From Nitrososphaerota archaeon (GTDB taxonomy: Archaea; Thermoproteota; Nitrososphaeria_A; Caldarchaeales; Caldarchaeaceae): a stretch of DNA of 64,000 nucleotides. Positions 34,551 to 51,781 of this stretch are shown piece after piece; within the stretch, counting starts at the first letter, position 1, and each line of letters opens with the position of its first letter. Location of the stretch: positions 480,001 through 544,000 of the forward strand of contig JBEPYN010000001.1 in the NCBI GenBank assembly GCA_041641305.1, in the 5' to 3' direction. The position numbers were made by a program, and so were the translations under genes. The notes below the pieces were generated by a model, which worked only from the letters and a program-made list of their open reading frames with translations, made no database searches and had not been told where the DNA came from.

Positions 34551-34626
34551 TGGGGCCGGTGGGATTTGAACCCACGACCTCGCGGGCCCAAGCCGCGCAT
34601 CTTAGACCAAGCTGGACCACGGCCCC
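34551..34626 (-). tRNA. tRNA-Pro(TGG)
   Basis: Minus strand GGGGCCG...CGCGG-CTTGGGC-CCGCG...GGTTCAAATCC...CGGCCCCA. Confidence 0.97.
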
Positions 34627-34667
34627 TTGAGAAAAAGGCTCCATAACCCGAATAAATACCAGCCGTT

Positions 34668-35357
34668 TTAGGGCAGGAGTTCTATGCCGTGTAAGCCGAT
34701 GACGTATTCGCTCCATTCAGTTGGATGCCGCACTCCGCGTAGAAAACGTATTCGGAGAAAACGCCGCAGGTTGCCGCCCATCTCCTCCATCATCATCTCC
34801 ACGACGCCGTCCGAGAGGCTGTAGAGGAGATTGGTGAGTTTCTGCTCGAGAATGTCTGGAACAATAATTGCGACACAGGTGCCGCCGTTCCTTCTCACGT
34901 CTGATGCGACGGCCTGGTAGAACTTGAAGGCGTTCTCCGAAGGAATGTATGCGAGAAGCGTGCTCAGGTCATCGATGACGAGAAAATAGTTGGACGAGTA
35001 GTCGGCTGCTTCGAGGAAGGTCTGCCGTATCTCAAGCAGGCTCGCCTCGGGGCTTATGCTGTAACGTGCTGGATACGCGTTTTCTCCCCGGGTGTGACAG
35101 TCAACGATAACAAGTTTACCTGTCTCGAGGTGGTTGTCAAAATCGACGCCGATGGATTTGGCGAGTTCGATGAAGTTTTGGGGAGACATGGTTGTGAGGA
35201 CGTATACCGTTTTCCTATCCTTGGACAACGCGGTTTCAACGGCTTGTATCGATAGGAGGGTTTTTCCGACGCCGTTGGGGCCCGTGAAGATTATCGACCC
35301 TGTTTTGCCGAGAATTGTCTCAATTATCCACTCGACGCTTACCTGCATCTCCCCCAC
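34668..35357 (-). CDS. Single-domain KaiC/RAD55-like RecA-superfamily ATPase
   Basis: Walker A GPNGVGKT, Walker B LVIDD, SDGVVEM...RFLRIRFLRG. Confidence 0.85.
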   Translation of the reverse strand: MGEMQVSVEWIIETILGKTGSIIFTGPNGVGKTLLSIQAVETALSKDRKTVYVLTTMSPQNFIELAKSIGVDFDNHLETGKLVIVDCHTRGENAYPARYSISPEASLLEIRQTFLEAADYSSNYFLVIDDLSTLLAYIPSENAFKFYQAVASDVRRNGGTCVAIIVPDILEQKLTNLLYSLSDGVVEMMMEEMGGNLRRFLRIRFLRGVRHPTEWSEYVIGLHGIELLP

Positions 35358-35532: not shown

Positions 35533-35854
35533 CGCCGCGGCGACTATTATAACTTGTGGCCTAATTTGCTCGACTCTATGCCCTATTCTCCCGCCGCTCG
35601 CTCTCCTCCAGTAGGACTTAGAGGGGTGAGAGTGAAGGTAGGTCGTAAGCCTTACTGTTCATATGCAACCAACATTGAGACCTGAGAAGCGCCGAGACAA
35701 AGCCGTAGAAAGGCCTCGAAAACCGGAAAAGTAAGAGAAGAAAAGGCATCTTTTAAGAGATTATCCTATCCTTACCAGCCTCTAATATACTCTCTTTATG
35801 CAACCAGTAAAGAAGTGAACATCAGGAAGAGTCATAAGGCATAAATAATTAAGG

Positions 35855-35991
35855 AAAAAATGAGGGGATGGTTGGCTGGCAGGCACCCAACCAACAACAT
35901 CTAGGAAACCCAAAAAGAAGCCGGCCGTTTAAGAGTTTAGCGAGGCGTAGACATCGCCCGTTTAATAGTCGGGCGTACCGGCTTCTGGGTT
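35855..35991 (-). ncRNA. Putative structured RNA 3' of the IS110/Tas-like gene
   Basis: Stems AAACCCA/TGGGTTT (35906-12/35986-92) and GAAGCCGG/CCGGCTTC (35917-24/35978-85), internal duplicated motif, a further hairpin (35869-93) and a T-run. Confidence 0.5.
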
Positions 35992-36837
35992 TTATCCTTG
36001 TTGTTGGGCCGGTACGCCTGCCAGCCTCTCCTGGGTTTCCCGTCTGATTGTCAGCCAGATTGTTTTTAGTAGTTCTTGTTGTTGTTTTCCTCGAGGTATC
36101 CCATGTAGGACCATTGTTAGCCTTGTCAGGGCCTGTCTGACACCATGGTTGTATCTCTTCTCCCGTCTATTGCCATGGAGTTTTAGATAGTTTCTCACCT
36201 TTGTGAAGGATTTGCTGAAGTCTATAAATGTCAAGAGCTCCGCCAAAGCCTCCCTAGACGTCAAATGATTGTCACCAGATAATCCAAGTTCTTCTACAAG
36301 CCTGTTGTAGACTGGGTATCTTATGCCAGCCTCCTCCGAAATAATTTCTGCCAGCTCTCTCATTCTCTCCTCGTTGAACCTTATCACCGTCCTCAGTATT
36401 CTTCTCTCCATCTCCGAGACTGCCTTAGACATGTTGAGTAGTCTTTGATGAGTTTTTAGGAGGCTTCGGAAAGCGGCTATCATCCTCCTCATTATGAGGA
36501 AGTCTTCATCAACTCTGCGGAACCACTTCTCTTCAATAGCCATCAGAGCCTTGATGTCAGCTCTCGCGGACTTGGATTTTATGTTCAGCCTCTGCCTCAC
36601 CACCTCAATCATCGATAATCTCCGAAGATAGTAGACCTCTGCGCCTCTCCTCAGAAGCATTATGAAACCATCTGTGTGGATTATTGGGATGGTGTCGACG
36701 AATACCTTGTCTCCCGGGCCTGCCGGTATATCCACCGGAGAATCAACATGCCTAAAGTTTTCACCGTCCGTAGTGTAGGTTACCCGGTATCCGGTGTCAT
36801 CCCTCTTCCTGTGAACATCGCAGTAGAACCTCATCTA
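35898..36837 (-). mobile_element. Candidate minimal IS110-family-like element
   Basis: Transposase-like ORF plus structured 3' non-coding end, bounded by a TAGATG (minus) direct repeat at 36832-36837 and 35898-35903; no terminal inverted repeats. Confidence 0.5.
35992..36834 (-). CDS. Short IS110-like / Tas-like protein (RuvC-like DEDD domain, coiled coil, truncated Tnp/Nop-like domain)
   Basis: YCDVH, VFVDT, KSARADIKAL (cf. KTDxxDA); LAELLTFIDF..F..VRNYLKL...YNHGVRQAL (cf. LLAEIGD.RF...L.SYAGL...GN..LR.AL). Confidence 0.65.
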   Translation of the reverse strand: MRFYCDVHRKRDDTGYRVTYTTDGENFRHVDSPVDIPAGPGDKVFVDTIPIIHTDGFIMLLRRGAEVYYLRRLSMIEVVRQRLNIKSKSARADIKALMAIEEKWFRRVDEDFLIMRRMIAAFRSLLKTHQRLLNMSKAVSEMERRILRTVIRFNEERMRELAEIISEEAGIRYPVYNRLVEELGLSGDNHLTSREALAELLTFIDFSKSFTKVRNYLKLHGNRREKRYNHGVRQALTRLTMVLHGIPRGKQQQELLKTIWLTIRRETQERLAGVPAQQQG

Positions 36838-37209
36838 CACCACCTTCCTTAGGACTATGGCGTATTCGTGGTAGAGGTCGTGGTTATGACCCTTGACTGT
36901 ATGGTATTTGGCGAAGTGGCCGTTTGAAAGCCTGAACTTCAAGGCCTCGACATGCCGGAGACCAACGTATTCTGCGAGCTCCTTGGTAAGCTCTACGAGG
37001 TTCTTACCTCGTCTGCATCTGTCGCAATTCCTCATCCTGCTTCCGCAGTGGTCGCAGTATGTAGAGAGCCATCTCTGCAGCAAGTATTCTCCGTAGAATC
37101 CGCCTAGGATGCCCACAACCATCAGAAGAACACCCTCGAACAAACGCCCCTCATTGACCAACTGAATCCCGTAGACAAGAGCTATCGCAACCAGCGCAGG
37201 CATCAGCAT
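36835..37209 (-). CDS. Small two-TM protein with CxxC...CxxC zinc-ribbon and His-rich tail
   Basis: C-terminal part of track ORF 36835..37656: MLMPALVAIALVYG...CDHCGSRMRNCDRC...HNHDLYHE; the N-terminal extension lies in the structured non-coding region. Confidence 0.6.
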   Translation of the reverse strand: MLMPALVAIALVYGIQLVNEGRLFEGVLLMVVGILGGFYGEYLLQRWLSTYCDHCGSRMRNCDRCRRGKNLVELTKELAEYVGLRHVEALKFRLSNGHFAKYHTVKGHNHDLYHEYAIVLRKVV

Positions 37210-37249
37210 ACTGCTGGACACCCTCTGCACCCCCACACCATTCCTCCGC

Positions 37250-38820
37250 GGCCGATGGGCAGTGTTTCCACGGATGGGTCGGACCCGCCCATCCGCAGAG
37301 TCCCTGGCCATCCAGACGACCTTACCCCCGGGAACCAGGGGTTTTGGAGGGCTTGGAGACACATATTCCCTCCCCATGAATGGGGGAGGCGGCCTATGAC
37401 AGCCGAGAAAATCTCCAAACCCTCTCAAAGCCGTCTGGAGAATGGTGTGGAGAACGTTAACAGAACATCGTAACCATCTGTCCCCGCCCACGGATTTGGA
37501 GCCGCTCCCACCAAGCGCCTCCATGACGCCATGATAGGGAGAACCCGTGGAGGAGACACCATGCCTCCCCCATGGAAAAACAGGCTCCAAGAATTCCCAG
37601 GCGGAGTATCTGAACAAACGTCTGACTATCTTCTGCCGGTCGCCTGTCCTGTCCACGGTGTCTAGGGGGCTGTGTAGTCATGCGTAGCACGGCCTACACA
37701 CCCCGCCATGCCAACCATGCGTAGCACGAGAAGGCATGCTTTGTCGAGACACCTGGACAGGCTTCAGCCGCATCGGCTCCGCCCCGGCTCCGTCATGCGT
37801 AGCACGGCCGAAGCCTTTCCCATCCCATGCATCCCGGAGAAGCCTGTCATGCGTAGCACGGCCAGGCAACTCCACAGAGACACCCGTCATGCATGGCACG
37901 GCCGGGTATCTGGGGCGGCAGATGCATGGGCTGGAGCGGAGCCGGAAGCCAGCCAACCACCCCCGCCACCCCACAAACAATTGAATGGGGTGGACGCCAT
38001 CTCTCAGGCGTATATGGGAAAAAACAAGGAGTGTTTGGATGGCTGGAGTTGTTCAGCTATGTTTGAATTAAAATTCTCCCGTTATGGGCTCAGGATGGCG
38101 GGGAGAGTCAGCCAACCTTCCCCCTCTATCCGGGCTTGTAGCCGTTTCTTCGACCCCTTTCCCCTGCTGCGGCTTGGGGATTTCCTTTGCGAGGGGTCTT
38201 TGGGCGAACGGCGGTCAGCCCGGCGCGGACGCCCAGCAAAACATGGAGAAGAGAAGGGTTCTAACGGGTTAGAATCATGTTATTGCCCCAGCCTATTCCA
38301 CCCCCTTGGATGAACCGTCCAGCACCCGTCTTTCCCCGGAGCGGTCTAGTGCCCAGGGCTTGGATAAATCATCCATGCACCGGAGCGTCCCCGAGCCTCA
38401 CCGGACCATGCCCTTAGCGGGCAAGCCATCAACCCGGAGAACCCTAGACCATATCCGGAGAGGCGGCAGCTCATCCAAGGGAGCAGCCCATCATCCCGCG
38501 GAGACGCTCAGGCAAAGCCTATAAGGAGGACTCTACTCCTCCCTATGGGCATCCCTGCCACGCCTCTGTGGTTCGGGGGGAACTCTGGGCGGCTGGGGTG
38601 CCCTCTCCACTCCATGTCCGCAGCGCTCCTATGCTTGCCGGCTTCGACGACCTGCGTGAATGTCGGGGGACTTTGGGGACAGGTTTGCCGGCACCCATCC
38701 CCTCGCCGCAGCCTTTTCAGGCTGTGGACCGGTTCCGCATCCGGCTCCCCAGCTCAGCCCCGTCGCCGGGGCTTCATGGGAAGCTCACGCAAGCCAGCCA
38801 ACCCCTTGGAGAGGCTGGTC
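37250..38820 (-). ncRNA. Putative large (~1.6 kb) structured non-coding RNA locus
   Basis: GC-rich, no credible ORF, many nested 7-11 bp helices; BRE/TATA at 38846-38859 oriented into it. Strand is less certain for the right half. Confidence 0.55.
37671..37907. repeat. Five copies of hairpin motif GTCATGC-GTA-GCACGGCC with irregular spacing
   Basis: Exact 18-mer at 37677, 37792 and 37846; variants at 37716 (CATGCGTAGCACG) and 37886 (GTCATGCATGGCACGGCC). Confidence 0.9.
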
Positions 38821-38845
38821 TAACATCATTTCCCCAACCTCCCCC

Positions 38846-38859
38846 ATATAAAGTTTTGG
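38846..38859 (-). promoter_or_regulatory. Candidate leftward archaeal promoter (BRE CCAAAAC plus TATA TTTATAT)
   Basis: Resembles the BRE/TATA consensus; predicted start near 38820 coincides with the edge of the structured region. Confidence 0.55.
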
Positions 38860-39044
38860 TGGCAAACCTGAACGAGATTTGAACGAGAGTTGAACGAGAA
38901 ATGTACGACGGCGGCTAATATTGTTCAACGCCTCTCTGGTGAGCCAAAAATCCGGCGAATCAGGCTGACCATAATTGTTCAATCTCGTACAAATCTCGTT
39001 CAGTTCTCGTTCATTTCTCGTTCAAGTTTGCCACCAAAAGTTTA
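38849..39044. repeat. 60-bp imperfect inverted repeat containing TGAACGAGA repeats at an 11-bp period
   Basis: Arms 38849-38908 and 38985-39044; TGAACGAGA at 38869, 38880 and 38891 plus TGTACGA at 38902, mirrored on the right arm. Confidence 0.92.
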
Positions 39045-39047
39045 TCT
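39034..39047 (+). promoter_or_regulatory. Candidate rightward archaeal promoter (BRE CCAAAAG plus TTTATCT)
   Basis: Mirror copy of the leftward promoter in the other inverted-repeat arm. Confidence 0.4.
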
Positions 39048-39448
39048 AGGGTTCCTTACGTCTCAGACTAACCTATTTAAAGGTATATGGTTGAAAACCG
39101 CGGACAAGCAACCCCAATTCCAGGAAATTTCGGGGTTCTGGAGAGACCTAAAATTTCCTGTAAACGCTGTTTTTCAGCCAAGTGTCTATCGGTTGACAAA
39201 TTATAGTCAACCCCCTTCCGTAGAAGGGTGAAATTTCGGGGAATTAGGCGCGGTAATACGGTGACCAAAATTACTTGGCTATGGTAATGCCTCTTGTCTC
39301 TATGGCTTGTAGAGGCGATTTTTCAGCTTTCTGGGACGGGTTTTTGAGATTTTTTGTGGGCTGCTCGTCGTTTGTCGATTCTGAGGAGACGATATGTGGA
39401 GGCTCGTGGTTTATCCGTCTATATGCTTGCCGCCGTATCTGCTTCTAT

Positions 39449-40009
39449 GTGAAGAATAGGAAACAGGGTAGAGGGCGGTACATTGTTCTCGTCCCAGCGG
39501 TGTTGCTGATGGTTTTCACAATATACCTTATGCTGACCCCTCCTCAGACAACGGACTCAGTTAATGTGACGAACAGAGCCACAGCACCAGACTTCACGCT
39601 CGAAACAATAGACGGCAAAGGGTTGACAGGCGGAACACTATCCTTCTCAAGCCTGCGGGGAAAACCCATACTCATAGACTTCGTATTCGAATGGTGTCCA
39701 CACTGCAACAACATGGCGCCTATCATGGAGAGGCTCCACAAAGAGTATGGAGACAGGGTAACATTTGTCACGGTCATGGGCTCTCAGAACACCAATCCCG
39801 AGAAGTCTGCAGAGTTCCTAGCTAGACATGGCGTAAAATGGGCGGCGGTATACGACAAAACGATGAAGACATTCATTGACTACGGTGTGAGGGGGACGCC
39901 TACATACGTATTCATACGACCAGACGGGACAATACTACGCAAATTACCGGGAGAACCGCCATACGAGACACTCAAGCTCTCCGTAGAGGAGCTATTAACA
40001 GGGCTCTAA
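39449..40009 (+). CDS. TlpA/ResA-like membrane-anchored thiol-disulfide oxidoreductase
   Basis: N-terminal TM, APDFTL, EWCPHC, YGVRGTPTY; start reassigned to GTG 39449. Confidence 0.88.
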   Translation: MKNRKQGRGRYIVLVPAVLLMVFTIYLMLTPPQTTDSVNVTNRATAPDFTLETIDGKGLTGGTLSFSSLRGKPILIDFVFEWCPHCNNMAPIMERLHKEYGDRVTFVTVMGSQNTNPEKSAEFLARHGVKWAAVYDKTMKTFIDYGVRGTPTYVFIRPDGTILRKLPGEPPYETLKLSVEELLTGL

Positions 40010-40104
40010 ACGCCCTCTGAGTTAGCAGACAAGTTGAGAAAGAAATGGCTTCTGAGGTGGAGAAGAGGAAGACAATACGAGTCAGGCATTAAAACCATAT
40101 AAAC

Positions 40105-40830
40105 TTGGACAATAGCTCTTCGTCATTGGCGATGCCGAGGAAAACAAATCGCTCATATATACTGCATCGAGGTATTGGGAAAGTTGAGAAAAAAGCTACT
40201 TATGAGGAGCTAAACCTGAAACTGCTTGAACTCTTATCCGACTGCTGGGACAGAGTCATATCGCTCGATTTTGAGACATACGTTGTCGAAAACAGATTCT
40301 TGAACGATGAGAAAATACTGTCAGTTAGTTTCGCTAGGAGGGTTTCGGGGAAAACAATGCAGGCTGAAGGTATCGAGGTTAAGTCTAATGTTTTAAATAA
40401 AGAAGACAAAGACTCTGAAAAACAAATGCTTGATTGGTTGGATGAGGAGCTGGGGAAGATTAATCCTCTCGGAGTCGTAGGATATATGCTCAGAGCGTAC
40501 GATATTCCGCTTTTAATAATGAAAAAAGAGCGCAACAAGGTGGAAGGCTCACCGTACTGGAAAATAATAGACCTAACAGAGAACGCAGTACATGTGGACC
40601 TCTACCACCTGCTCAGGGACAGAGGTTACAATAATCTGTACGACGCCATATCATCACTATCCCAAAATCTTCCTCTAAAGAAAGTAGAAGATTACTTATC
40701 TCAAAATAGAGAAATGAAGGGAAAAGCTGTCAAAGAGTTATGGGAAAAAGGGGCACTCAAAGAATACAACGAAGGACATGCATATAACATGTTGCTGATT
40801 GCGGAATGGCTCACATTCGGAGGAGAGTAA
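40105..40830 (+). CDS. DnaQ/RNase H-like (DEDD) 3'-5' exonuclease-family protein
   Basis: SLDFET (Exo I), GYMLRAYDIP (Exo II), HVDLY, YNEGH (Exo III position); true start probably downstream of 40105. Confidence 0.65.
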   Translation: MDNSSSSLAMPRKTNRSYILHRGIGKVEKKATYEELNLKLLELLSDCWDRVISLDFETYVVENRFLNDEKILSVSFARRVSGKTMQAEGIEVKSNVLNKEDKDSEKQMLDWLDEELGKINPLGVVGYMLRAYDIPLLIMKKERNKVEGSPYWKIIDLTENAVHVDLYHLLRDRGYNNLYDAISSLSQNLPLKKVEDYLSQNREMKGKAVKELWEKGALKEYNEGHAYNMLLIAEWLTFGGE

Positions 40831-41233
40831 TGACAACCGTATACTATTCCGATTGTCCATCCGAGAGGCTCGCTGTACTCCTTCACAATCTCGTCATATG
40901 TTGTGAAAACCCTTCTCTTCACCAACTTTGACCTGCTCTTCACCAACCCATCACATCATGTAATAATCCTCCCATATAACGCTAGGATGCCATCATATAG
41001 AAGTGCTTCCTTGACCATGTTTTGGCAGACTCAGCAGCCAAATATAGCCGTGTCTACCGCAGTCTCTTTCTCCAGGGTAGGTTAACGAGTCGGCTTCAGA
41101 TACACCAACACCGCCATATACTATCTATCAGCGTTTTCGATAACGCTTCTGCTCGCCAACATGGGTATGAGCTATGGGTTCTTCGGATTCTTCAAACTAT
41201 GAGGATGTAATCGCTCATCGGGCGAAACAATGA

Positions 41234-41587
41234 CTAGAGCCAGACTCCTTTCGCCCCGACGCATCTGAGAACCATCAAGTTTTTCTCGTTGTCGGGAATA
41301 TTTTTGCCAGAAACAGACGCTCTCTGCGGGGCCGAAAGCACGTAGAACAGCTCTTCACCAACCTCTGCTATGTCTCCTACAGTGAACTTCAGCAGCCACT
41401 TCCTCAGAAGCTCGAGCGTCGGAGCATGTCTGACGTATACGATGACTTTATCATATTTCTTAGCGTCGGCCGCGAGCTCATCGAGAGAAGAGCTGCTAAC
41501 CTGTATACAGAAGCTTGGAAAAAGGCTAGAGAAAGCTGACGGCGGCAAAGACGGCAACACCTTAAGGACATTCTTTCTCGCACTCAT
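41234..41587 (-). CDS. DUF1874 (STIV B116/AcrIII-1/Crn2)-like protein
   Basis: 117 aa; IVYVRHAPTLELL resembles family motif SAIGHxATAELL; later LSAPQR resembles LKQR. Confidence 0.5.
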   Translation of the reverse strand: MSARKNVLKVLPSLPPSAFSSLFPSFCIQVSSSSLDELAADAKKYDKVIVYVRHAPTLELLRKWLLKFTVGDIAEVGEELFYVLSAPQRASVSGKNIPDNEKNLMVLRCVGAKGVWL

Positions 41588-41631
41588 GAAGTCGATTTCT
41601 CAGCCGAAAAATAAAAGGCATCATCTGCATA

Positions 41632-42354
41632 ATGGAACCGTCAGAAATTGTTGAATGCAACCTTGCCCGGGTGGTCTACGTTTGGCCGGAAACGGTTAAT
41701 ACTGGGAGAAGTTTTATGATGGCGATGAATCCCGGCAAGGTATTGCCGGCTATCCTGCTTGTTGTAGGCCTGTTGGCCGGGTTCTTCAGCGGCTCGGTTC
41801 TAAGCCCCGTAACAGTCACCAGCACGTTGGTCAAAACCTCCATTTCGACAAGCGTAAGCACGGAGCAGGTGACAAAAACTGTGTCCACCACCGTGACTTC
41901 GTACGAGACCCTTAGATGGTCTACTACGCTTTTCGTAACGGCCCGCACCACGTTAACTTCGGTCTCAACCAGTATCTCCACCCGGACAACCACGGTTACA
42001 TCGACCACTACCGCAACCACTACAATGGTTTCAACCGTTTACCCCGCCGTCTCGGGAACCGTGCTGGTGAGAGACAGAGGCAGCGGCTCTAAGGAGACGC
42101 CGCCGTTCACGCTCGAGGCGACCTCAGACCTAAGGATAAAAATCACGATAAGGGCTACGGCCGACCTCCGATACGTCGGCTTATATTGGTACCTGTATGA
42201 AGTGGGCGATGACCTATCCTATAAGAGGGGCTCTATTCTAGAGGAGCAGGGGTCCTTCGAGTTCTACGCCGCAGCCATTCCGCCCGGTAACTGGTACATA
42301 CAGGTGAACGCCGCCAACTGCAACTGGGAAATCACTGTCGAAAAAGTTACTTGA
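41632..42354 (+). CDS. Membrane-anchored surface protein with Thr/Ser-rich stalk and C-terminal beta-sandwich
   Basis: TM segment, about 80-aa T/S/V-rich linker, PPGNWYIQV...WEITVE; start probably near MAMNPGK (~41716). Confidence 0.75.
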   Translation: MEPSEIVECNLARVVYVWPETVNTGRSFMMAMNPGKVLPAILLVVGLLAGFFSGSVLSPVTVTSTLVKTSISTSVSTEQVTKTVSTTVTSYETLRWSTTLFVTARTTLTSVSTSISTRTTTVTSTTTATTTMVSTVYPAVSGTVLVRDRGSGSKETPPFTLEATSDLRIKITIRATADLRYVGLYWYLYEVGDDLSYKRGSILEEQGSFEFYAAAIPPGNWYIQVNAANCNWEITVEKVT

Positions 42355-43957
42355 CAGATTCCGAGAACTCTCTCCATCTTTCCAGCATAATTTTCCGCCT
42401 CTCCTTCAGGAATTCTTCATAGTTCTCGCGTTTCCATAGCTCAGGGTCGAGCGGAATGCAGTGCTCCCGTAACAGAGCAGGGTCCTGGTCGTAGAGTTTG
42501 CTGAGATACTCCGACGGCTCTTTATCCCTCAGAGTCTTGTTACTCAGGCTTGAGAGAAATGTGATGTTTGCCGCATCATTCTCCAGCTCGGGGTCTAGCA
42601 ACTTCCTTTTGAAAAGGTATTGTGGGAAGATGTGGTGCTCGTTTATCTCACTATCTCTTAGCTCCCATATCTTATCCGGGTCACCCCCATCCCTGGGCGT
42701 CCAGTCACGGGCATTATAAGATTTGAGGAGAATAGATAGCAGGGTTCGGTGCTCGTCGGAGAATTCCCGCTCCAGATAGTCGGGCAAGAGCTCCTTCACC
42801 TTCAGATTTTCTACTAGTCGTCCAACATCCCAACTATTCTTCACCGATTCCAAGTCTTCTAAGAGGTCGCTCTCCAGCCGTCCAGTATATCTGCCATTGA
42901 ACGATGCCAGTACAAGCCACTTAACCAGCTCATGTTTAAACTTCTTGTCAACCAGCTTGCCCTGTGACAGATAGTTGTTATGCATGATTATCGCGGGCAT
43001 GACGGGGAGGTAATGCGATACCAAGAACTTCGGCCTGGCTCCGTATTCCTGGAATATGTCGAGAACACTCTGGATAGCCTTGAACGTATTGTTTAAGTAT
43101 TTGAGCAAAGTCTCGGAATTGTTCCTCATCAGCTCATTCAGAGCCGGCTTAAATTTTACCTGACCAGTTGCAATGGCTAAGTATGCCCGTATAAGAGGCG
43201 GGGCGTCGACATCATATCCCCTGGTTTGCAAGTCGCTCAGCAATGTTTCAAACTGGTCCCTGAACCTCTTTCCCTGTTCATGTATGATTTTACCGGACAG
43301 GAGCGCTAATACGAGGTCGTGTAGCTTCACCTTGGTTCCCTGGCTGTTCAAGGCCACGAACATCCGCGAGATATTCTCGAAGGCCTCGAGATGGTTATCC
43401 CTGCTCCACTTTATCGTAACCTCCATGAAGGTCACCTTGTAATCGTTGAAACGCTGCCAAAGCCTCGTCAGGCTATCGTAGATTTTCGGTTGTCTCACAG
43501 AATGCTTCTGAACCAATTCAGAATATTCCCTCGCCTGCAACACCTCTGACACTTTGTACAAGTTACCGCCTGGATTAGTTCTGCCTCGGCCAAGAATGAA
43601 TTTCTCGTTCAATGCATCGAATAGAAGGTTAATCCTTTTTGTTTCCTGGTTTATGGTTATTTCGCCATTATTTATCAGGAGTAGAGATGTCAGCCTCTGT
43701 CTGCCATCAATCACCATGTAGCGTCCGTTCTTTAAATTCATGTTATCGGCGATTGGCCTGAAAATGTTTTCGAGCTCCTCACGCACATCCGTAGGTATCT
43801 CGGCCACGCATATCGACCCTATTGGAAAACCGTTGTAAATAGACTCCGCGAGCTCCAGCACCTGCCTGTTACGCCATACAAAGGGTCTCTGAATATCAGG
43901 GACTATGAACTCACCCTGCTCAAGCTTAGACATCAAATCCCTAAGGAGCATATCCAT
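42347..43957 (-). CDS. GmrSD-like DUF262 plus DUF1524(HNH) modification-dependent restriction nuclease
   Basis: PDIQRPFVW, IDGRQRLTSL, FVALNSQG; C-terminal EHHIFP...NITFLS...N. Confidence 0.85.
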   Translation of the reverse strand: MDMLLRDLMSKLEQGEFIVPDIQRPFVWRNRQVLELAESIYNGFPIGSICVAEIPTDVREELENIFRPIADNMNLKNGRYMVIDGRQRLTSLLLINNGEITINQETKRINLLFDALNEKFILGRGRTNPGGNLYKVSEVLQAREYSELVQKHSVRQPKIYDSLTRLWQRFNDYKVTFMEVTIKWSRDNHLEAFENISRMFVALNSQGTKVKLHDLVLALLSGKIIHEQGKRFRDQFETLLSDLQTRGYDVDAPPLIRAYLAIATGQVKFKPALNELMRNNSETLLKYLNNTFKAIQSVLDIFQEYGARPKFLVSHYLPVMPAIIMHNNYLSQGKLVDKKFKHELVKWLVLASFNGRYTGRLESDLLEDLESVKNSWDVGRLVENLKVKELLPDYLEREFSDEHRTLLSILLKSYNARDWTPRDGGDPDKIWELRDSEINEHHIFPQYLFKRKLLDPELENDAANITFLSSLSNKTLRDKEPSEYLSKLYDQDPALLREHCIPLDPELWKRENYEEFLKERRKIMLERWREFSESVK

Positions 43958-44162
43958 GTCGTGGAAAAAATCAACGAGAAGTATAAATCTTAAGCGACAT
44001 TTTTCTCAACCCCTGCCTCCAATGCTTCGTTCTCCGCCACTAGACAGACTGAGCTGCCACCCATTATTCCACAGAATCATATGTTCCTACCGTTCCCATC
44101 AACCCTCTGAAACAGCCACGTTCTCTTAAAACTTAATTTTTAAGGTCAGGATTATAGTTTTC

Positions 44163-47100
44163 ATGAATTTTGGGCTTGATTTCTGGGTGGCTTGTTTATC
44201 TGAGAGAGGCTACCAACTTCATAGAGACAAGCTTGACATCGAAACTCTGTTCAAGACAAGGGTTCTTCTCAGCAGTGATGTGAAGGAGGCTTACCTACTC
44301 TATAGAGATGATTTTGTAGAGGTTGTGGCACTAATTTTTGACGAGCTTCCAGGCAGGGGTTATTGCGCTAGGATTGCTCGGCGATGGCGTGAAAAAAGAC
44401 TGCTTAGGCCTTTCCTGATATTTACCGACAATATTTCGTCTTATGCGGTGATTGTTAGAGGGCCGGGGCTGGGTGAGGAGGTTAGAGTGCTGCATTTAGA
44501 GGGGCAGTTGTATAGAACAGATTTGGAGGCTCTCGAGTCAGTAACCCATCCAGGAAAACCTGACGAGCTCAGGAAGAAATATGATACGGAGTTCTTCCCA
44601 TATGAAAAGGTTAGGGAAGAGTTTTTCCAGCAGTATAAGAAACTGTTTGAGAAAGTCATTGAAATCGTTAAACCCGTTTTCGGAGAGAACCGTGCTAAAG
44701 AATATGCTCAACGGTTTCTAGGCAGGCTGATGTTTCTCTACTTTCTCCAGAGAAAGGGGTGGTTAAACAACGATAGACAGTTCATAAACAAGTTGTCCGG
44801 TTTCAGAGAGCTTAACAGAGTCTTCTATGAGCTTTTAAACAAACCGGGGGGAGGAGACGGTGTACCATATCTAAACGGCAGCCTCTTTGACAGGGAGGAG
44901 TATCTAACAGCTGAGGCTGAGAGAAAGATAGAGAAGAAAATGGATAGTTTGTTTAATGAAGCTAGGGAGGTGTTTAACCGATACAACTTCACCGTCAACG
45001 AGACTTCGCCGCTGGAGGTTGAGGTAAGCGTAGACCCTCTGCTGCTGGGAACAGTTTTGGAGAACATGCTTCCCGAGCATGAGAGGGGAGCCAAAGGAAC
45101 CTTCTACACACCGGTCAACGAGATAAACTTCATCTGTAGAAAAGCTATACAGGCTTGGCTGGGCCTAGAGGACAGGGTAGACGAGACAGGGACCAGGCTA
45201 ATCGACGGGCTCGAGGAATACATCAACCAGTTAAAAGAAAGGCGGGACGAGGCGGAGATAAGAGAGTTCAGGAACAGGCTTCTATCTTTGAAAGTATGTG
45301 ATCCCGCCGTCGGCTCGGGAGGGTTCCTCGTGGTGATGATGCAGACGATACTGAGCCTTATTCAGGAGGTTGAGGAGGCTGTAGGCTGGCACGCCGACCC
45401 AGCTATCTACAAGTCGAGAATCCTACCCAACCTCTATGGATTCGACATAGAGCCCGAGGCCGTCGAGATAGCGAGACTCCGTCTATGGCTCTCCCTCGTA
45501 GTTGACCAGAAGAAACCCGAGCCACTCCCCAACCTAGACCTAAACATCATGGTGACAAGCGACTCCCTCAGCCTCCCACAAGGTGGACAATCCCTTATCG
45601 ACCAATACTACACATCTAGCAGGATTAGAGAACTGGTCGACAACCTGAACGAGCTTAAAAAGAAATACACAACCGAACACAATCCAACAGCGAAGAAAGA
45701 GCTTCAGAACCGCATCGAGAAAATCTGGCGAAAACTTGTGGAGGAATTTGGGAGCGAAGAATTAAAGACTCTACCGCTTGAGCTAATCATGATGAGCCGA
45801 CCAGACATAATAGTGATGAATCCACCCTACGTAAGACAGGAGAAAATACCTCCTAGAACAAAGGAGCACTATGTAAAGAGCTATAGACTGGACAGGACAT
45901 CGGACATCTACGCATTCTTCATGAAAAGAGCCCTTAACTTACTTAATGAGAAGGGTGCAGCATCCATAATATCATCCGACAAGTGGCTCGAGGTCGGGTA
46001 CGGCTTAAAGCTGCAGGAGACGCTGAAACCCCATCTCCTGGCTGTCTACGGCCAGCGTGAAAGAAGCTTCGGAGCAGACATAAACACAGTAATAACAGTG
46101 CTCAGAAAAGAAAAACTACCAGACAACCACAGCATACAGTTCATCTACCTAAGCAAATACGGCGAAAAAACAGTCATCAACCACAAATCCATACCAAGAG
46201 GAGAGCTCAAGCCAGGGAAATGGTACTACCTAAGAGCACCGAAAATATTCGAAGAAACCCTACTACCAAAACTAACCCACAAGCTGAAAGACTTCGCCGA
46301 AATAAAATTCGGCATTAAGACCGGTGCTAATGAGTTCTTCTACATGAAGGACGTCAGCCACCTATACGAGGCAGACTACCTAGCAAACCCAAGAAGATTC
46401 CACGAATGGGGAGTAAATGCACGAAACCAAAAAGAACTCGAAGAACAAGAACTTATATACATAGAGAATGAAGCAGGAAAAAGATTCGTGATAAATAAAA
46501 AAGATGTAAGACCTATTCTCCGGTCGCCAGAAGAAATTCACGAATATATGTTTTCACAATTCAAGAAACTCTGTCTGTATACAAGCAATCCAGGTTCATT
46601 AACCACAAAATACATTAGAAAATATGAAAAAGAGGGAATACACCGCCGATCCACTCTCAGAAATAGGTCACCTTGGTGGAAACTTCCAGAGTTAGAAACC
46701 ACTAGTATCGTTTTGATAAAGTCATTCCACAATGTAATTTATGAACCGATATGTCCTAAACCCGTTCTCGTGGACCAGAGAGCTTATGTATTTAAGCCCC
46801 GCAACCTCAAATCATTAGAAGATGTGTGGAAGTACTTCAACAGCACGATTTTTTACTTAACTATCGAACTTTATTGTGATAGGTTGGGCGGAGGAGCGAC
46901 AGATATCAGGGTCGAAGATTACAAAGAAATGCCAGTCCCCGACTTGTCCCGATTACATATAGCGTTTGACGCTAAAAGGTTGTGGAATAGAAAACCATTA
47001 CCTTACAATGAGGAGGTGCAGCAGGCTGATAGACGAGAATTAGACAAAGCTGTGCTTAGAGTCCTAGGCTTCCCCGAATCCGAACTAGATAGGCTTGTCG

Positions 47101-47210
47101 ATGAACTTCACAAGGCTTTTGTATGGGTTGTCGAGGACCGCTTGATAAAATCCGGCAGACCTCTACACGTAGAAGAAGAGGAAGGGGCTGTGGTTGACGA
47201 AGATAGTTGA
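44163..47210 (+). CDS. Large N6-adenine DNA methyltransferase (Eco57I/type IIG-like) with target recognition region
   Basis: RLMFLYFLQRKGW, PYLNGSLF, GTFYTP, DPAVGSGGF, NPPY. Confidence 0.9.
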   Translation: MNFGLDFWVACLSERGYQLHRDKLDIETLFKTRVLLSSDVKEAYLLYRDDFVEVVALIFDELPGRGYCARIARRWREKRLLRPFLIFTDNISSYAVIVRGPGLGEEVRVLHLEGQLYRTDLEALESVTHPGKPDELRKKYDTEFFPYEKVREEFFQQYKKLFEKVIEIVKPVFGENRAKEYAQRFLGRLMFLYFLQRKGWLNNDRQFINKLSGFRELNRVFYELLNKPGGGDGVPYLNGSLFDREEYLTAEAERKIEKKMDSLFNEAREVFNRYNFTVNETSPLEVEVSVDPLLLGTVLENMLPEHERGAKGTFYTPVNEINFICRKAIQAWLGLEDRVDETGTRLIDGLEEYINQLKERRDEAEIREFRNRLLSLKVCDPAVGSGGFLVVMMQTILSLIQEVEEAVGWHADPAIYKSRILPNLYGFDIEPEAVEIARLRLWLSLVVDQKKPEPLPNLDLNIMVTSDSLSLPQGGQSLIDQYYTSSRIRELVDNLNELKKKYTTEHNPTAKKELQNRIEKIWRKLVEEFGSEELKTLPLELIMMSRPDIIVMNPPYVRQEKIPPRTKEHYVKSYRLDRTSDIYAFFMKRALNLLNEKGAASIISSDKWLEVGYGLKLQETLKPHLLAVYGQRERSFGADINTVITVLRKEKLPDNHSIQFIYLSKYGEKTVINHKSIPRGELKPGKWYYLRAPKIFEETLLPKLTHKLKDFAEIKFGIKTGANEFFYMKDVSHLYEADYLANPRRFHEWGVNARNQKELEEQELIYIENEAGKRFVINKKDVRPILRSPEEIHEYMFSQFKKLCLYTSNPGSLTTKYIRKYEKEGIHRRSTLRNRSPWWKLPELETTSIVLIKSFHNVIYEPICPKPVLVDQRAYVFKPRNLKSLEDVWKYFNSTIFYLTIELYCDRLGGGATDIRVEDYKEMPVPDLSRLHIAFDAKRLWNRKPLPYNEEVQQADRRELDKAVLRVLGFPESELDRLVDELHKAFVWVVEDRLIKSGRPLHVEEEEGAVVDEDS

Positions 47211-50200
47211 CAATTCAAAGGAAACTCTGCAGAGTGTTCTTTTGAAGGAGTTACAGGAGGTTTCTGAGGTTGCTATCGCGACAGCGTACTTCAACATCAC
47301 GGGCTTCGGCGACATAGAGCCCGGCTTAGCAGACAAACCTCTACGCCTCCTACTAGGCAGGCCTCCCACCGAGCAGATAGAATGGGAGGAAGAAGTTCTT
47401 AGAGAGCTTGAGGAATATGAGGATGACCCTCGATACTTCAGTCTTCTGCAGAGAGTGATAACGTTTTTTGAACATTATTCTAGGGAGGTGAGAATAGTTG
47501 ATGGAAAGTTTTTCCACGGCAAGGCGTTTCTGGGAGTTCACCCGTCTTTCCAAGACGTTAGGAGGGGGTTTGCATCCGTGGGCTCAAGCAACTTCACCCA
47601 TGGAGGACTGGTTACCAACAGGGAGCTGAACATGTTCACAACGGATAGGGAGACTGTTCAAGAGCTGGCGGAATGGTTTCAAAAACAGTGGAGCGATATG
47701 TTTTCAAGAGACTATAAGAACGAGTTCCTAAGCCTTCTAAAAACATACGTCACCTCATGGAGTCCATACGAGGTCGCGGCCAAAGCATTGTGGGAAACCT
47801 ATAAAAAAGATTGGGAAACCAAGAGGCCGAATATACTCAAAAACCTGTACCCGCATCAGCAGCTAACCTTCATAGACGCATTAGACAAGCTGGAAAAATA
47901 CGGCGGCGTAGTTATCGCCGATTCCACGGGTCTTGGAAAAACCCTTACGGCCTTGGCCATAGCTCACTACTATAAGGGTCTTGGTGTCAAGTCTCTGCTC
48001 ATAGCTCCCAAAAGCATACTCGACACTACTTGGATGACCGAGATGGATAGCTCCGACATATGGGTTAAGTGGATAAACTCCGAGAAACTTTCAGCAGACC
48101 CAGAAATAGTGGAACAATATGTAAACAATGATAAAAGCATTGGGTTGATTATCGTTGATGAGGCGCATTATTTCCGCAATCCTGCAACAAACCGTTACAA
48201 CGCACTAAGCAAGCTGATTAAACTTACCAGGTCCAAGGTGGTTCTGGTAACTGCCACACCTGTAAACACAAGCCTCATGGACCTGTACCACATAATGGCG
48301 CTCTATCTTCCAGACAACATCATATTTGACGAATACAGAACTACGCTGGGAGAATATTTCATACAGAGCCAGAAAAAATGGCTGAACAACGAGCCAGTAG
48401 ACATGGAAGATATTCTGAGGAAATTCGTGGTGAGACACTCTAGACAATTAGCAAAGGCGCTGGACAGGGAGGGCAGGATAAAATTCCCGGAGAGACAACT
48501 ACACACCATAAAATACGACCTGCCACTCGACGTGGAAAAACTATACAATCTCCTCGACAAACTTAACCTATATTTCTACGAGCTCAGCGTAGACAAGCTC
48601 TCTCAACAGTTCAGGCTACCTGATGGAACACCCGCCATAAAATATGAGAAACAAGCCGAAAACCTGAAAGACCTGATAAAGGTGATACAGAAGATAGGTC
48701 TTCTCAAAAGACTGGAAAGCAGCATACATGCGTTCAGAGAATCCATCAACAGAATTAAGAAATACATTGAGTACGCAACAATCTATGCAGAAAAAGAATC
48801 CATATTCATACCTCCCAAGCTCAAAGGGGACCTGTTCGCTCTGCTCGGCGAAGAAGAGGAACAGGCAACCCTTCCAACAATGGAGGACCTATTCTATAAA
48901 CATCGACACCTTCTCGAAAAATGCAGTCTAAGCAACCATGAGAAACAAAAACTTATCCAGAGCAACAGGGAAGACCTGAAGACAATTGAAGAAGTGATAT
49001 CGCTGCTACCCGCCAGAGACACAAAAATTGATGCTTTTCTAAAGGAAGTTAGCGATGTCGCCAAAAAATTGTCAAAAAGGAACGGCATAATAATATTCAC
49101 CCAATACATCGACACAGCAAAATACGTTTTCGATGCCCTCAGAAACAGCTACCCGTACTCTATCCTCGTAACAGGCGAGGGCGGAAGAGATAGCAGTGGT
49201 AAGAGAATTGAGGAGGCCGAGGCTGTTGAACACTTTCAGAAAAACGGAGGCATATTGGTTAGCACAGACGTTTTGAGCGCCGGGCAAAACCTCCAAAACG
49301 CTCAATACATAGTCAACTACGACTTCCCATGGAACCCCGTAATACTTATACAAAGGGCTGGGAGAGTTGACCGAATAGGCTCCCCCTATGACAGCGTCTA
49401 CCTCTTCAACGTTCTACCCCATCAAGGAGGCCCCGACGACCCAACCAGCCTCGAATACTTCCTGGGCCTCATGACGAGGCTCTACCAGAGACTTGAGGCC
49501 ATCAGAGCCACCATAGGGCTTGACGCATCAACCCTGGGTGAAGAAGCCATACCTAGAGACTATACAGAGCAGAGAAGAATAGCCGCCGAGGACAAAAAAG
49601 TTTTAGCGGAGCTTGAGAAAAAACTTGAGCAATTCACGAAAGACCCGTTGGACGACCTAGCCCAAATAATCAACGAGAGAGGAATAGACTGGGTTGAGAA
49701 GCTTCCCAACGGAATAGGAGCGTTGAAAAAAGACAGCTTCGACGCTGTTTTCGCCCTCTTCACAGACGGGCAACAGCACTACTGGAGGTTGAAAAACCTA
49801 GACACGGGCGAGACCTTGACGAAGCCGTCCGAGATAGTTCCTATCCTGCTCCGCGGGGACGTTCACAGCAAAGGAGAGAGGATAAACTACGACATATTAG
49901 TGGATAAGCTGAGACAATTAAAAGAGGAGCTCAGAACAGAGCTGTTGAAAAAACAGACAATAACCACAACCATAGAAGACATCCCAGTATCGGTTACCAA
50001 AATCGTTAAAGAAATATACGAGGCACTAGAGAGGTTGGGAGAGGAGGGAATAGTTTTAGCCGCAAGGTTCAGAAAACAAGCCAACAACCCAACCACCGTC
50101 AAAATACTGAAAAAAGCACTAGAGGAGGGAAAACTACTCGAAGAAGCAAGGAAAATCCTCAAAGAAGACACCCAAACCAAAGCATCAAACAACAACCAGA

Positions 50201-50265: not shown

Positions 50266-50316
50266 CAACATGAACCTGTGAAAAAACGTATAAAGCCACT
50301 GACCAAGTATTTAGAC

Positions 50317-50535
50317 GTGGCTGCTATCTAGGAAATTACCAGAATCTATCTTGAGACAGCTCAGACAGACTTGGGTGCGGCCAACTTCCTCTACCAGAAG
50401 GAATTCTACCCGCATGCTTTAGACAAGTATTCGAACTACGATAAACCTGGGGAAATAATCAGAGGCGCCAAACAGATTCTAAGGAGCCTGATTTTTAACC
50501 AGAATTTGAGCGCTGTACCTTCTCCACGCAATTAG
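50317..50535 (+). pseudogene. HEPN-domain gene remnant
   Basis: GTG GCT GCT ATC TAG, then in frame EITRIYLETAQTDLGAANFLYQKEFYPHA (HEPN N-terminal helix pattern); central part missing. Confidence 0.55.
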
Positions 50536-50578
50536 GCCTCATCCGTTTTTATGCCTGTATGTTTGGGTTACTATCTCG

Positions 50579-50956: not shown

Positions 50957-51189
50957 GAATTTCAGATTTTCGTGGCCAAACATCCTTATTCCTTGAAATT
51001 TTGCCTCTCTAAGGTTTACGGATAGGGAATCTTCGACTTTAGTCCCTCTCGAAAGATTATATGCTGTTTAGCGGTGGTGTTTACGCTGGTGGGCTGAGTT
51101 TGACCCATCAGCATTGTATATCGGATTTCTTTCCCCGAGAGGGTTTTTGAGAATATTGAGACTCACCCGTCTATGAGGCCACGGGCACG

Positions 51190-51630: not shown

Positions 51631-51781
51631 TCATGCGGCGGGCGCCATTGAGTTTAAAGAAGCGTCTGAAGATACCCAGGTTCAGCTCCCTCGCTATGCC
51701 GTAAACCATCCAGGTCAGGACAAGCGTCAAAATGAGCGTGACGAAGACCATCACAAACTCCAAGTCGGTGGACGACGTCAT
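51623..51781 (-). CDS. Small single-TM protein (52 aa)
   Basis: Not in the track: MTSSTDLEFVMVFVTLILTLVLTWMVYGIARELNLGIFRRFFK..., starting 4 bp after the stop of the upstream gene. Confidence 0.5.
   Translation of the reverse strand: MTSSTDLEFVMVFVTLILTLVLTWMVYGIARELNLGIFRRFFKLNGARRMIN

What the first reader, a model, noticed from the sequence alone, without database searches (positions are those of the whole stretch)
37250..38820. ~1.6-kb non-coding locus of nested helices: candidate undescribed giant structured RNA
Seen: in an otherwise gene-dense window, this GC-rich stretch has no credible protein but is tiled by complementary pairs forming multibranch domains. Examples: CGGATGGG/CCCATCCG (37271/37288), TCCAGACG/CGTCTGGA (37311/37432), TTGGAGCC/GGCTCCAA (37496/37583), CCTGTCCA-C-GGTGTCT/AGACACC-TGGACAGG (37648/37747), CGGCTCCGC/GCGGAGCCG (37774/37936), CCCATGCATC/GATGCATGGG (37824/37921), CCGGGCT/AGCCCGG (38130/38217), CCCCAGCC/GGCTGGGG (38286/38591), CCCTTGGATGA/TCATCCAAGGG (38303/38471), CCTCTCCA/TGGAGAGG (38602/38807). 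In the left half, several plus-strand C.A mismatches become G.U pairs on the minus strand, and a BRE/TATA points into the right edge. Wobble polarity is mixed in the right half, so two RNAs or a folded ssDNA are alternatives. It does not resemble rRNA, RNase P, SRP or a group I/II intron that I can recognise.
Basis: partly seen in the sequence, partly recalled or inferred. Interest (0 to 1): 0.88.

Follow-up and report, generated by a model that had tools for sequence, protein, structure and literature searches.

The report
Structured leader RNA of RNA-guided element
The GC-rich "gene-less" 1.6 kb is a real, heavily folded minus-strand RNA region, but it is a chain of RNA modules in front of an IS110/TasR-like RNA-guided protein gene inside a 16-kb mobile island, and RNAs of this size and build are not described for such systems.

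Summary
All ten listed helices are present, the stretch is 58-65% GC against about 48% in its flanks, and it folds far better than shuffled sequence. Nothing in Rfam or Pfam matches it.

- The RNA strand is the minus strand throughout.
- The locus is modular, not one proven giant RNA. It has a lineage-specific 5' block (38825-38238), a conserved block U (38237-38085) and a conserved ~550-nt core (38015-37455). The core contains two 5' hairpins, a G-rich tract, five capped hairpins and a 3' domain.
- U and the core have relatives with compensatory base changes in three genera of two Caldarchaeales families, at 1-9 copies per genome.
- In 17 loci the core's 5' module is followed 0.3-1.2 kb downstream, on the same strand, by a homologue of the 280-aa protein at 35992-36834. 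That protein's model matches the IS621 and ISCro4 bridge-RNA recombinases and TasR.
- The protein's 3' dual-guide hairpin spells the exact site where a 16.1-kb island (35550-51648) is inserted. The RNA locus lies inside that island.
- One metatranscriptome contig covers 37539-37972.

Function is unproven. My best guess is an accessory RNA partner of the element. This scan had already seen the same RNA type in Ca. Caldarchaeum subterraneum.

The parts
38844..38857 (-). BRE/TATA-like promoter element pointing into the locus. It is the outer end of the left arm of a 67-nt palindrome. The predicted start is near 38820.
   Evidence: Sequence read directly; inverted repeat I1. No transcript 5' end was mapped.
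38238..38825 (-). Block T: a lineage-specific structured segment. It opens with a short stem made of the element's CCAGCC/GGCUGG end motif.
   Evidence: Minus strand -308.7 kcal/mol, z -7.2; plus strand -264.3, z -4.1. No homologue in 40 relatives apart from a 23-nt motif, so it has no comparative support.
38085..38237 (-). Block U: a conserved module of two stacked helices around an internal loop, plus an invariant possible pseudoknot.
   Evidence: Ten copies aligned: 94% of cells paired, 7 of 14 nested pairs changed on both sides, 0 of 500 shuffles as good, slid controls 22-50% paired. Model R2 finds it in 9 of 75 genomes, all of which also carry the 5' module.
38021..38050 (-). C-rich tract complementary to the G-tract at 37948-37964, followed by a T6 run (38026-38021) that could end a first transcript.
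   Evidence: Sequence. A C-rich tract precedes hairpin 1 in all copies inspected. The T-run is present only in the window and the C2 copy.
37948..38011 (-). 5' module of the core: hairpin 1, hairpin 2 and a G-rich tract.
   Evidence: Model R1. 30 copies in 13 of 75 genomes. 6 of 13 pairs changed on both sides, 0 of 500 shuffles as good. The G-tract is the reverse complement of the tract near the element's other end and co-varies with it by subfamily.
37668..37911 (-). Five hairpins (37911-37877, 37871-37837, 37817-37783, 37739-37705, 37702-37668). Their basal stems differ, but all carry the same 13-nt apical mini-hairpin.
   Evidence: The cap occurs only here and in the 90% paralogue. Other subfamilies carry arrays with their own caps. 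Orthologous stems keep pairing through double changes.
37455..37646 (-). 3' domain of the core: a long branched hairpin with two AUGG-type loops.
   Evidence: DNA variants in two runs replace 37486-37612 by 4 nt, a clean loss of one arm.
37215..37454 (-). Proximal structured segment. It may overlap the 5' end of the small-protein gene.
   Evidence: z down to -6.6. 76% identical to the C2 copy across 37028-37427. It could be coding from about 37311.
36835..37209 (-). Small protein P1: two predicted membrane helices, a Cys4 motif, and a C-terminal 57 aa shared with the gene that precedes the 280-aa protein in other copies.
   Evidence: No Pfam or NCBIfam hit.
35992..36834 (-). 280-aa IS110/TasR-like protein (P0002).
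   Evidence: AlphaFold2 pLDDT 89.9. Foldseek hits 9T56, 8WT6, 8WT9 and 9MTY at E 4e-7 to 2e-5, TM 0.60-0.66. Multi-copy in this genome and its relatives.
35858..35985 (-). 3' RNA of the element: a dual-guide hairpin (guides at 35971-35963 and 35938-35930) and a terminal hairpin that carries the C-rich tract.
   Evidence: z -3.7 and -5.4. Guide-to-flank matches.
35541..35549 (+). Left half of the insertion site, identical to guide A. The insertion begins at 35550.
   Evidence: The only exact match in the window outside the guide itself. It coincides with the end of homology to G005 and to contigs of runs X3 and X16.
51649..51668 (+). Right flank of the insertion. It is the sequence that directly follows the left half-site in genomes without the insertion.

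Best explanation
The stretch encodes minus-strand structured RNA that belongs to a mobile element, not to the cell's core machinery.

Order along the minus strand:
- a promoter at about 38850;
- a lineage-specific block T;
- conserved block U;
- a conserved ~550-nt core (two hairpins, a G-rich tract, five capped hairpins, a branched 3' domain);
- a small membrane/zinc-finger protein gene;
- the gene of an IS110/TasR-like RNA-guided protein;
- that protein's dual-guide hairpin.

All of this lies at one end of a 16.1-kb island inserted at exactly the 16-bp site the dual guide spells.

Shown: the structure, the strand, the covariation, the copy-number pattern, the linkage to the protein gene, the protein's fold, the insertion site, and the presence of the core in an RNA library.

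Inferred: the RNA is an accessory partner of the element. I think it most likely acts as a protein-binding scaffold. The repeated caps would be binding sites. The G-rich tract would pair with, or mirror, the complementary tract at the element's other end, so marking the element's own DNA or RNA. The 3' hairpin would supply target recognition. The locus may give two or more RNAs rather than one.
For: Structure and strand.

Covariation:
- 5' module: 6 of 13 pairs changed on both sides, 0 of 500 shuffles as good.
- Block U: 7 of 14 nested pairs, 0 of 500.
- Core across two genera: 147 consensus pairs, 28 with compensatory changes and many conserved G.U pairs.

Not a known family. RNase P and SRP RNAs lie elsewhere in the genome.

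Mobile-element behaviour: the 5' module occurs in 13 of 75 genomes, 3 of 15 genera, at 1-9 copies. Block U occurs only in genomes that also have the 5' module.

Linkage: a P0002 homologue starts 306-1178 nt downstream on the same strand in 17 of the 30 loci; most of the other 13 have too little downstream sequence to tell. Protein identity falls as low as 30%. Two of five metagenome copies show the same arrangement.

Protein fold.

End complementarity that co-varies by subfamily.

Insertion site spelled by the guides, with an empty site in G005.

RNA library: a 460-nt contig at depth 139 on 37539-37972.
Against: - Six of the seven further P0002 paralogues examined in G009 have AT-rich, weakly structured upstream DNA, as does copy C2a in this genome. 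The RNA is therefore dispensable for the protein family.
- No copy-specific guide-like loop was found in the 5' RNA; differences between copies are compensatory.
- Block T has no homologues, so its structure rests on energy alone.
- Eight 5' modules with 1.5 kb or more of sequence downstream have no P0002 gene there; three of these are followed by a P1-like gene.
- The RNA evidence is one assembled contig, from a relative, with no strand information.
- Palindromic protein-binding sites in DNA would give the same two-sided changes in hairpins 1 and 2.
- No binding between the RNA and any protein was tested.
Confidence: 0.55

Rival explanations
1. A cis-acting leader. The folded region is the 5' untranslated part of the mRNA for the small protein and the 280-aa protein. 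It only tunes their translation or stability, for instance keeping the nuclease or recombinase low or temperature-dependent.
For: Same strand and always upstream. The only good promoter is at the far end. The RNA is absent from many paralogues, as expected of a dispensable regulator.
Against: Length of 0.5-1.6 kb, and conserved modules far from the start codon. A T6 run lies inside the locus. In the C2 copy, 9.35 kb of other genes separate the RNA from the protein gene.
Confidence: 0.15
2. Stacked relics. The 1.6 kb is a pile of left-end fragments from successive insertions of related elements at one spot. It looks structured only because each end carries palindromic motifs and hairpins, and it has no present function as a whole.
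For: The end motif occurs three times in the G-rich orientation (about 38805, 38123 and 37964) and twice in the C-rich orientation (about 38818 and 38050). Spacing between block U and the core varies from about 45 to 820 nt among copies, with a gene-bearing insert in the C2 copy. Block T is unique to this lineage.
Against: U and the core are conserved with compensatory changes across two families. The order U then core recurs in at least 10 loci. Folding z-scores are strong for the unique block too.
Confidence: 0.12
3. Independent RNA genes. They are cellular or selfish in their own right, and the IS110/TasR-like element merely tends to land next to them.
For: Eight 5' modules with enough downstream sequence lack the protein gene. 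In G009 one copy lies inverted, 1.9 kb from the nearest paralogue.
Against: In the window the RNA lies inside the inserted DNA, 1.9 kb from the site the guides specify. Distribution is patchy and copy number variable. Orientation and side are constant.
Confidence: 0.06
4. Folded single-stranded DNA. The hairpins act in DNA during replication or transposition, or are double-stranded palindromic protein-binding sites, and no functional RNA is made.
For: Sub-terminal repeated motifs are typical of transposon ends. Hairpins 1 and 2 show almost no G.U pairs.
Against: 70 G.U pairs on the minus strand against 33 on the plus strand, and a 105 kcal/mol strand difference. Conserved G.U pairs in U and the core. 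An RNA-library contig covers the core.
Confidence: 0.05
5. A missed or decayed protein-coding gene, for example the 201-aa ORF at 37708-38313 on the plus strand.
For: Long ORFs exist on both strands.
Against: GC-rich DNA gives such ORFs by chance. There is no Pfam hit. An 11-nt indel separates copies that are 90% identical. Substitutions are paired across helices.
Confidence: 0.02

Closest known systems
Bridge RNA of IS110 elements (IS621) and seekRNA of IS1111 elements (ISCro4 and others)
   Same: A structured RNA encoded in the non-coding end of the element, beside a protein of the same fold. The element is inserted at a site spelled by RNA guides. It has sub-terminal complementary tracts, as ISfinder describes for IS1111 (my own knowledge).
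   Different: Bridge and seek RNAs are about 150-250 nt and consist of two guide-bearing internal loops. Here the guides sit in a separate 3' hairpin. The 5' RNA is 0.55-1.6 kb, has no copy-specific loops, and carries hairpin arrays with constant caps.
Stem-loop TIGR arrays of TIGR-Tas systems (Faure et al. 2025, PMC12045711; bioRxiv 10.64898/2026.09.09.750476)
   Same: Tandem hairpins with variable palindromic stems next to a Nop-domain, TasR-like protein gene, upstream of that gene.
   Different: Each TIGR unit holds two variable 8-12-nt spacers framed by box C and box D. Here the only sequence between the stem arms is an invariant 16-18 nt mini-hairpin, so there is no room for spacers. The single spacer-bearing unit of this element is the 3' hairpin.
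omegaRNA/HEARO of IscB and the reRNA of TnpB
   Same: A large structured RNA encoded at a transposon end that partners the element's RNA-guided nuclease.
   Different: No sequence or structure match (Rfam). The protein fold is different. Those RNAs carry the guide themselves.
Large bacterial RNAs of mobile DNA (GOLLD, ROOL) and multi-hairpin sponge RNAs (CsrB/RsmZ)
   Same: Size, GC-rich multi-domain fold and location in mobile DNA, as for GOLLD and ROOL. Repeated hairpins with a constant loop on varying stems, as in protein-sequestering RNAs.
   Different: No Rfam match. Archaeal host. No partner protein has been shown. These are resemblances of form recalled from my own knowledge, not tests.

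Membership tests
IS110 bridge RNA / IS1111 seekRNA | Encoded in the non-coding end next to an IS110-fold protein gene | tested here: met
   Foldseek hits to 9T56, 8WT6 and 8WT9. The RNA lies upstream on the same strand in 17 loci.
IS110 bridge RNA / IS1111 seekRNA | Internal loops whose strands match the target and donor DNA of that copy | tested here: not met
   For the 5' RNA, differences between copies inserted at different places are compensatory stem changes. The flank-matching 9-mers lie in the 3' hairpin.
IS110 bridge RNA / IS1111 seekRNA | Compact size of about 150-250 nt (my own knowledge of IS621) | tested here: not met
   The core alone is about 550 nt and the locus about 1.6 kb.
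TIGR array, stem-loop type | Units with two 8-12-nt variable spacers framed by box C (CNA) and box D (YG) (PMC12045711; bioRxiv 10.64898/2026.09.09.750476) | tested here: not met
   Only 16-18 invariant nt lie between the stem arms of all five hairpins.
TIGR array, stem-loop type | Adjacent Tas (Nop-domain) protein | tested here: met
   Match to 9MTY TasR, TM 0.61-0.64.
Rfam families (rRNA, RNase P, SRP, group I/II introns, GOLLD, ROOL, HEARO, OLE, raiA, C/D and H/ACA sRNAs) | Covariance-model score at or above the gathering threshold | tested here: not met
   No hit in 36800-39300 at gathering. The best E-values are 7-10. RNase P and SRP RNAs are found elsewhere in the genome.
CRISPR array | Regularly spaced identical repeats with unique spacers | tested here: not met
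   Cap spacing is 37, 78, 54 and 40 nt, and the flanking arms of each cap are self-complementary.
Box C/D sRNA or K-turn reading of the hairpin caps | RUGAUGA and CUGA boxes forming tandem G.A pairs | tested here: inconclusive
   By eye only. The caps have GA on one strand but GU, not GA, on the other, and the G013 caps lack both. Box-like words occur near the 5' ends of some subfamilies.

The most novel reading that the evidence does not exclude
These are members of a new class of large (0.5-1.6 kb) modular RNAs that work as a second RNA subunit of archaeal IS110/TasR-like RNA-guided machines. The 3' hairpin would read the target. The 5' RNA, through its G-rich tract and its array of capped hairpins, would recognise the element's own ends and assemble several protein copies. 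That would be a split, scaffold-plus-guide version of the bridge-RNA mechanism.
Probability: 0.3. Interest if true: 0.85.

Novelty: new variant of a known kind. Interest (0 to 1): 0.62.

Why it matters
RNA-guided recombinases and nucleases of the IS110/TIGR-Tas lineage are being developed as genome-editing tools, and their known RNAs are small: 36-nt tigRNAs and roughly 180-nt bridge RNAs. A conserved, much larger RNA that travels with a minimal 280-aa member of this lineage would point to an unrecognised layer, such as assembly, self-recognition or control.

The locus also gives a concrete archaeal test case. It has a defined protein, a defined guide, a defined 16-bp target with an empty allele in a sister species, and a 16-kb cargo of defence genes.

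If the RNA is only a leader or a relic, the finding is still a clean example of covariation-supported large RNA structure in Aigarchaeota, where I found no paper describing structured RNAs.

Tried and rejected
- Exact 14-mer scan of genome contigs with the cap motif: only single chance hits in unrelated bacteria.
Only 5 good hits (plus one marginal) to model R1 were found among the 80 loci listed.
- Profile search of P0002 against PDB sequences: only chance coiled-coil hits. Pfam and NCBIfam gave nothing.
- Weak Rfam matches (Flavi_CRE, sR32 and others, E 7-10): treated as chance.
- Divergent RNase P or SRP RNA: rejected, because both are found elsewhere in the genome.
- The five hairpins as TIGR units or as guides: rejected. 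There is no spacer room, and the stems are the same in copies at different sites.
- The caps as K-turns, or as mimics of the guide-flanking boxes: the patterns are not consistent across subfamilies, so this was left open.
- The loose end at 38847 in run X3 as an element boundary: rejected. It is a 50-nt match to a paralogous repeat region with foreign DNA on both sides.
- Absence of RNA-library contigs over the P0002 coding region: not usable. The run's organism is a relative whose gene is probably below the 85% identity cut-off.
- A palindromic extension on the RNA contig at 37972: could be a cDNA snap-back artefact, so it was not interpreted.
- Whether G-tract/C-tract mismatches are wobble-only (RNA pairing) or random (DNA repeat): mixed, so inconclusive.
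- Literature searches for structured or non-coding RNAs, or IS110, in Aigarchaeota or Caldarchaeum: nothing relevant.

Full report
**What is there.** The window comes from a 1.66-Mb Caldarchaeum-type (Aigarchaeota) genome. Relatives of its proteins are named Candidatus Caldarchaeum and Calditenuaceae. Between 37215 and 38850 the GC content rises to 0.58-0.65, from about 0.44-0.50 on either side. The internal ORFs have no Pfam hit. Rfam gives only three tRNAs in the window and nothing here, even at E up to 10. The genome's RNase P and SRP RNAs lie elsewhere.

**Is it more than chance, and which strand.** In 200-nt windows, z-scores against dinucleotide shuffles are about 0 in the flanking genes and -2 to -6.6 inside the stretch, mostly lower on the minus strand.
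- 37455-38015, minus strand: -289 kcal/mol, z -7.4.
- 38238-38825: -309 kcal/mol, z -7.2 on the minus strand; -264, z -4.1 on the plus strand.
- The whole stretch: -830 kcal/mol with 70 G.U pairs on the minus strand; -725 with 33 on the plus strand.

The only block whose single-sequence fold favours the plus strand (38020-38240) has conserved U.G and G.U pairs on the minus strand in its relatives. I therefore read the whole locus on the minus strand.

**Anatomy on the minus strand.**
- A BRE/TATA at 38857-38844 points into the locus. It is the outer end of one arm of a 67-nt palindrome with 11-nt tandem repeats (38842-39051).
- Block T (38825-38238) follows. It has no homologue in 40 relatives.
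- Block U is 38237-38085.
- Next come a C-rich tract and a T6 run (38050-38021).
- The core is 38015-37455. It holds hairpin 1, hairpin 2 and a G-rich tract (38011-37948). Then come five hairpins whose basal stems differ but whose 13-nt apical mini-hairpin is constant (37911-37668). It ends in a branched 3' domain (37646-37455).
- A further structured piece (37454-37215) may overlap the start of the next gene.

**Relatives and covariation.** The genome holds a 90% identical copy of the core at C1:441168-441709, and a collinear, more diverged copy of U, the core and the proximal piece on contig C2.

A covariance model of the 5' module (R1) finds 30 copies in 13 of the 75 genomes held for the order. 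These fall in three genera of two families, at 1-9 copies per genome. On the resulting alignment, 6 of 13 pairs have changes on both sides and 95% of cells pair. No shuffle of 500 does as well, and slid controls reach 40-64%.

Ten copies of block U give 7 of 14 nested pairs changed on both sides and 94% paired, against 22-50% when slid. A possible pseudoknot in U is invariant, so it is neither supported nor contradicted.

An RNAalifold consensus of the core across two genera has 147 pairs, 28 of them with compensatory changes.

Other subfamilies carry hairpin arrays at the same place, each with its own repeated cap. Two DNA runs contain variants in which 37486-37612 is replaced by four bases, a clean loss of one arm.

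**What it belongs to.** Downstream on the same strand lie a small protein (36835-37209 or to about 37311) and a 280-aa protein, P0002 (35992-36834). Neither has a Pfam or NCBIfam hit.

P0002 is multi-copy: four full copies here, nine matches in G009, 24 in G003, and more than 500 homologues, essentially all annotated as hypothetical. Its AlphaFold2 model (pLDDT 89.9) matches the bridge-RNA recombinases ISCro4 and IS621 and the TIGR nuclease TasR (E 4e-7 to 2e-5, TM 0.60-0.66).

In 17 of the 30 loci with a 5' module, a P0002 homologue starts 306-1178 nt downstream on the same strand, even where the proteins are only 30-45% identical. Most of the other 13 have too little downstream sequence to tell. 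Two of five metagenome copies show the same arrangement, and two more are followed by a relative of the small protein. Block U occurs only in genomes that also have the 5' module, almost always just upstream of it.

The reverse does not hold. Six of the seven further P0002 paralogues examined in G009, and one copy here, have AT-rich, weakly structured upstream DNA. The RNA is thus an accessory of some lineages of the element, not a requirement of the protein family.

**The element and its insertion site.** The hairpin just 3' of P0002 carries two framed 9-mers (35971-35963 and 35938-35930).
- The first 9-mer is identical to 35541-35549 on the plus strand. That is its only other exact occurrence in the window. 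It sits exactly where homology to a sister species (G005) and to contigs of two sequencing runs stops.
- In those contigs the sequence continues with the reverse complement of the second 9-mer, overlapping the first by TA.
- The same continuation is found in this window at 51649.
- G005 has the uninterrupted site beside its KaiC-like gene.

So 35550-51648, 16.1 kb, is an insertion at the site the guide RNA spells. It contains P0002, the small protein, the whole GC-rich locus, the palindromic promoter and a set of defence-type genes: GmrSD, an Eco57I/MmeI-type methylase and a PLD-SNF2 helicase. The arrangement KaiC, P0002, RNA is shared with Ca. C. subterraneum (G009).

The G-rich tract of the 5' module is the reverse complement of a C-rich tract in the terminal hairpin beyond P0002. 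The two co-vary between subfamilies, as sub-terminal repeats of a transposon or a 5'-3' RNA pairing would. In the C2 copy, 9.35 kb of other genes lie between the RNA and P0002. The window's small protein looks like a fusion across a deletion of such cargo.

**Expression.** One metatranscriptome run holds a 460-nt contig, at depth 139 and about 92% identity, on 37539-37972. It also holds short contigs on the P0002 3' end. Contigs give no strand and no ends, and the organism is a relative. This shows only that the core is present in an RNA library.

**Interpretation.** I take the locus to be the structured 5' RNA region of an IS110/TasR-like RNA-guided element (confidence about 0.55). It probably gives more than one RNA. 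The core and U are functional, because they are conserved with covariation across families. Block T is a lineage-specific addition, or a relic.

The mechanism is inference only. The caps would be repeated protein-binding sites, and the G-rich tract would be a self-recognition element that complements the target-reading 3' hairpin.

The rivals are a plain cis-regulatory leader, a stack of decayed element ends, independent RNA genes, DNA-level structure, and missed coding sequence. Their evidence is given in the Rival explanations section.

The locus is not a bridge or seek RNA: it has no copy-specific guide loops and is several times too large. It is not a TIGR array either, because the hairpins have no spacer room.

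**Relation to earlier notes of this scan.** The scan had already described the P0002 family with its dual-guide RNA in this and other genomes. It had also described a roughly 720-nt leader RNA in front of such a gene in Ca. C. subterraneum. I re-tested the fold, the guide-to-target relation and the RNA homology here, and they hold. Papers I could search describe bridge RNAs, seekRNAs and tigRNAs, but nothing like this RNA.

Noticed in passing
window 35550-51648: A 16.1-kb island inserted exactly at the 16-bp site spelled by the two 9-nt guides next to P0002. The sister species G005 and contigs of runs X3 and X16 have the empty site. It is unclear whether the whole island or only a roughly 3-kb unit is the mobile entity.
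   Followed up: partly
window 38842-39051: A 67-nt inverted repeat whose arms each hold three or four 11-nt tandem repeats and end outward in a BRE/TATA-like motif. It looks like a divergent, factor-controlled promoter pair. One side drives the RNA locus and the other faces the thioredoxin-like gene.
   Followed up: partly
window 42347-50265: A defence-type gene set inside the island: a GmrSD-like nuclease (42347-43957, minus strand), an Eco57I/MmeI-type methylase (44163-47210) and a PLD plus SNF2 helicase fusion (47194-50265).
   Followed up: partly
G000:C2:450221-462816 (L175): A second long copy of the RNA locus. About 9.35 kb of genes lie between the N-terminal and C-terminal parts of the small-protein homologue. 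A 760-nt insert carrying a small membrane-protein ORF lies between block U and the core.
   Followed up: partly
window 37486-37612: DNA contigs in runs X5 and X7 lack this 127-nt hairpin arm and carry 4 nt in its place. This is a natural deletion of one structural arm of the core.
   Followed up: no
G003 copies (L148, L160, L166, L168-L171), about 170 nt upstream of hairpin 1: Another subfamily replaces block U with a different conserved block. That block has a TATA-like box, box C/D-like words and a 13-15-nt segment that varies between copies in one genome, which makes it a possible guide-like segment.
   Followed up: no
window 37972 (run X16 contig end): The RNA-library contig continues beyond 37972 with a 25-nt extension that, with the first five aligned bases, forms a perfect 30-nt palindrome built from the sequence near 37655-37670. 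It could be a cDNA snap-back artefact or a real rearranged RNA.
   Followed up: no
window 34551-35357: A tRNA gene (34551-34626, minus strand) and a KaiC-like ATPase gene (34668-35357, minus strand) form the conserved flank of the island. The ATPase is 92% identical in Ca. C. subterraneum.
   Followed up: partly
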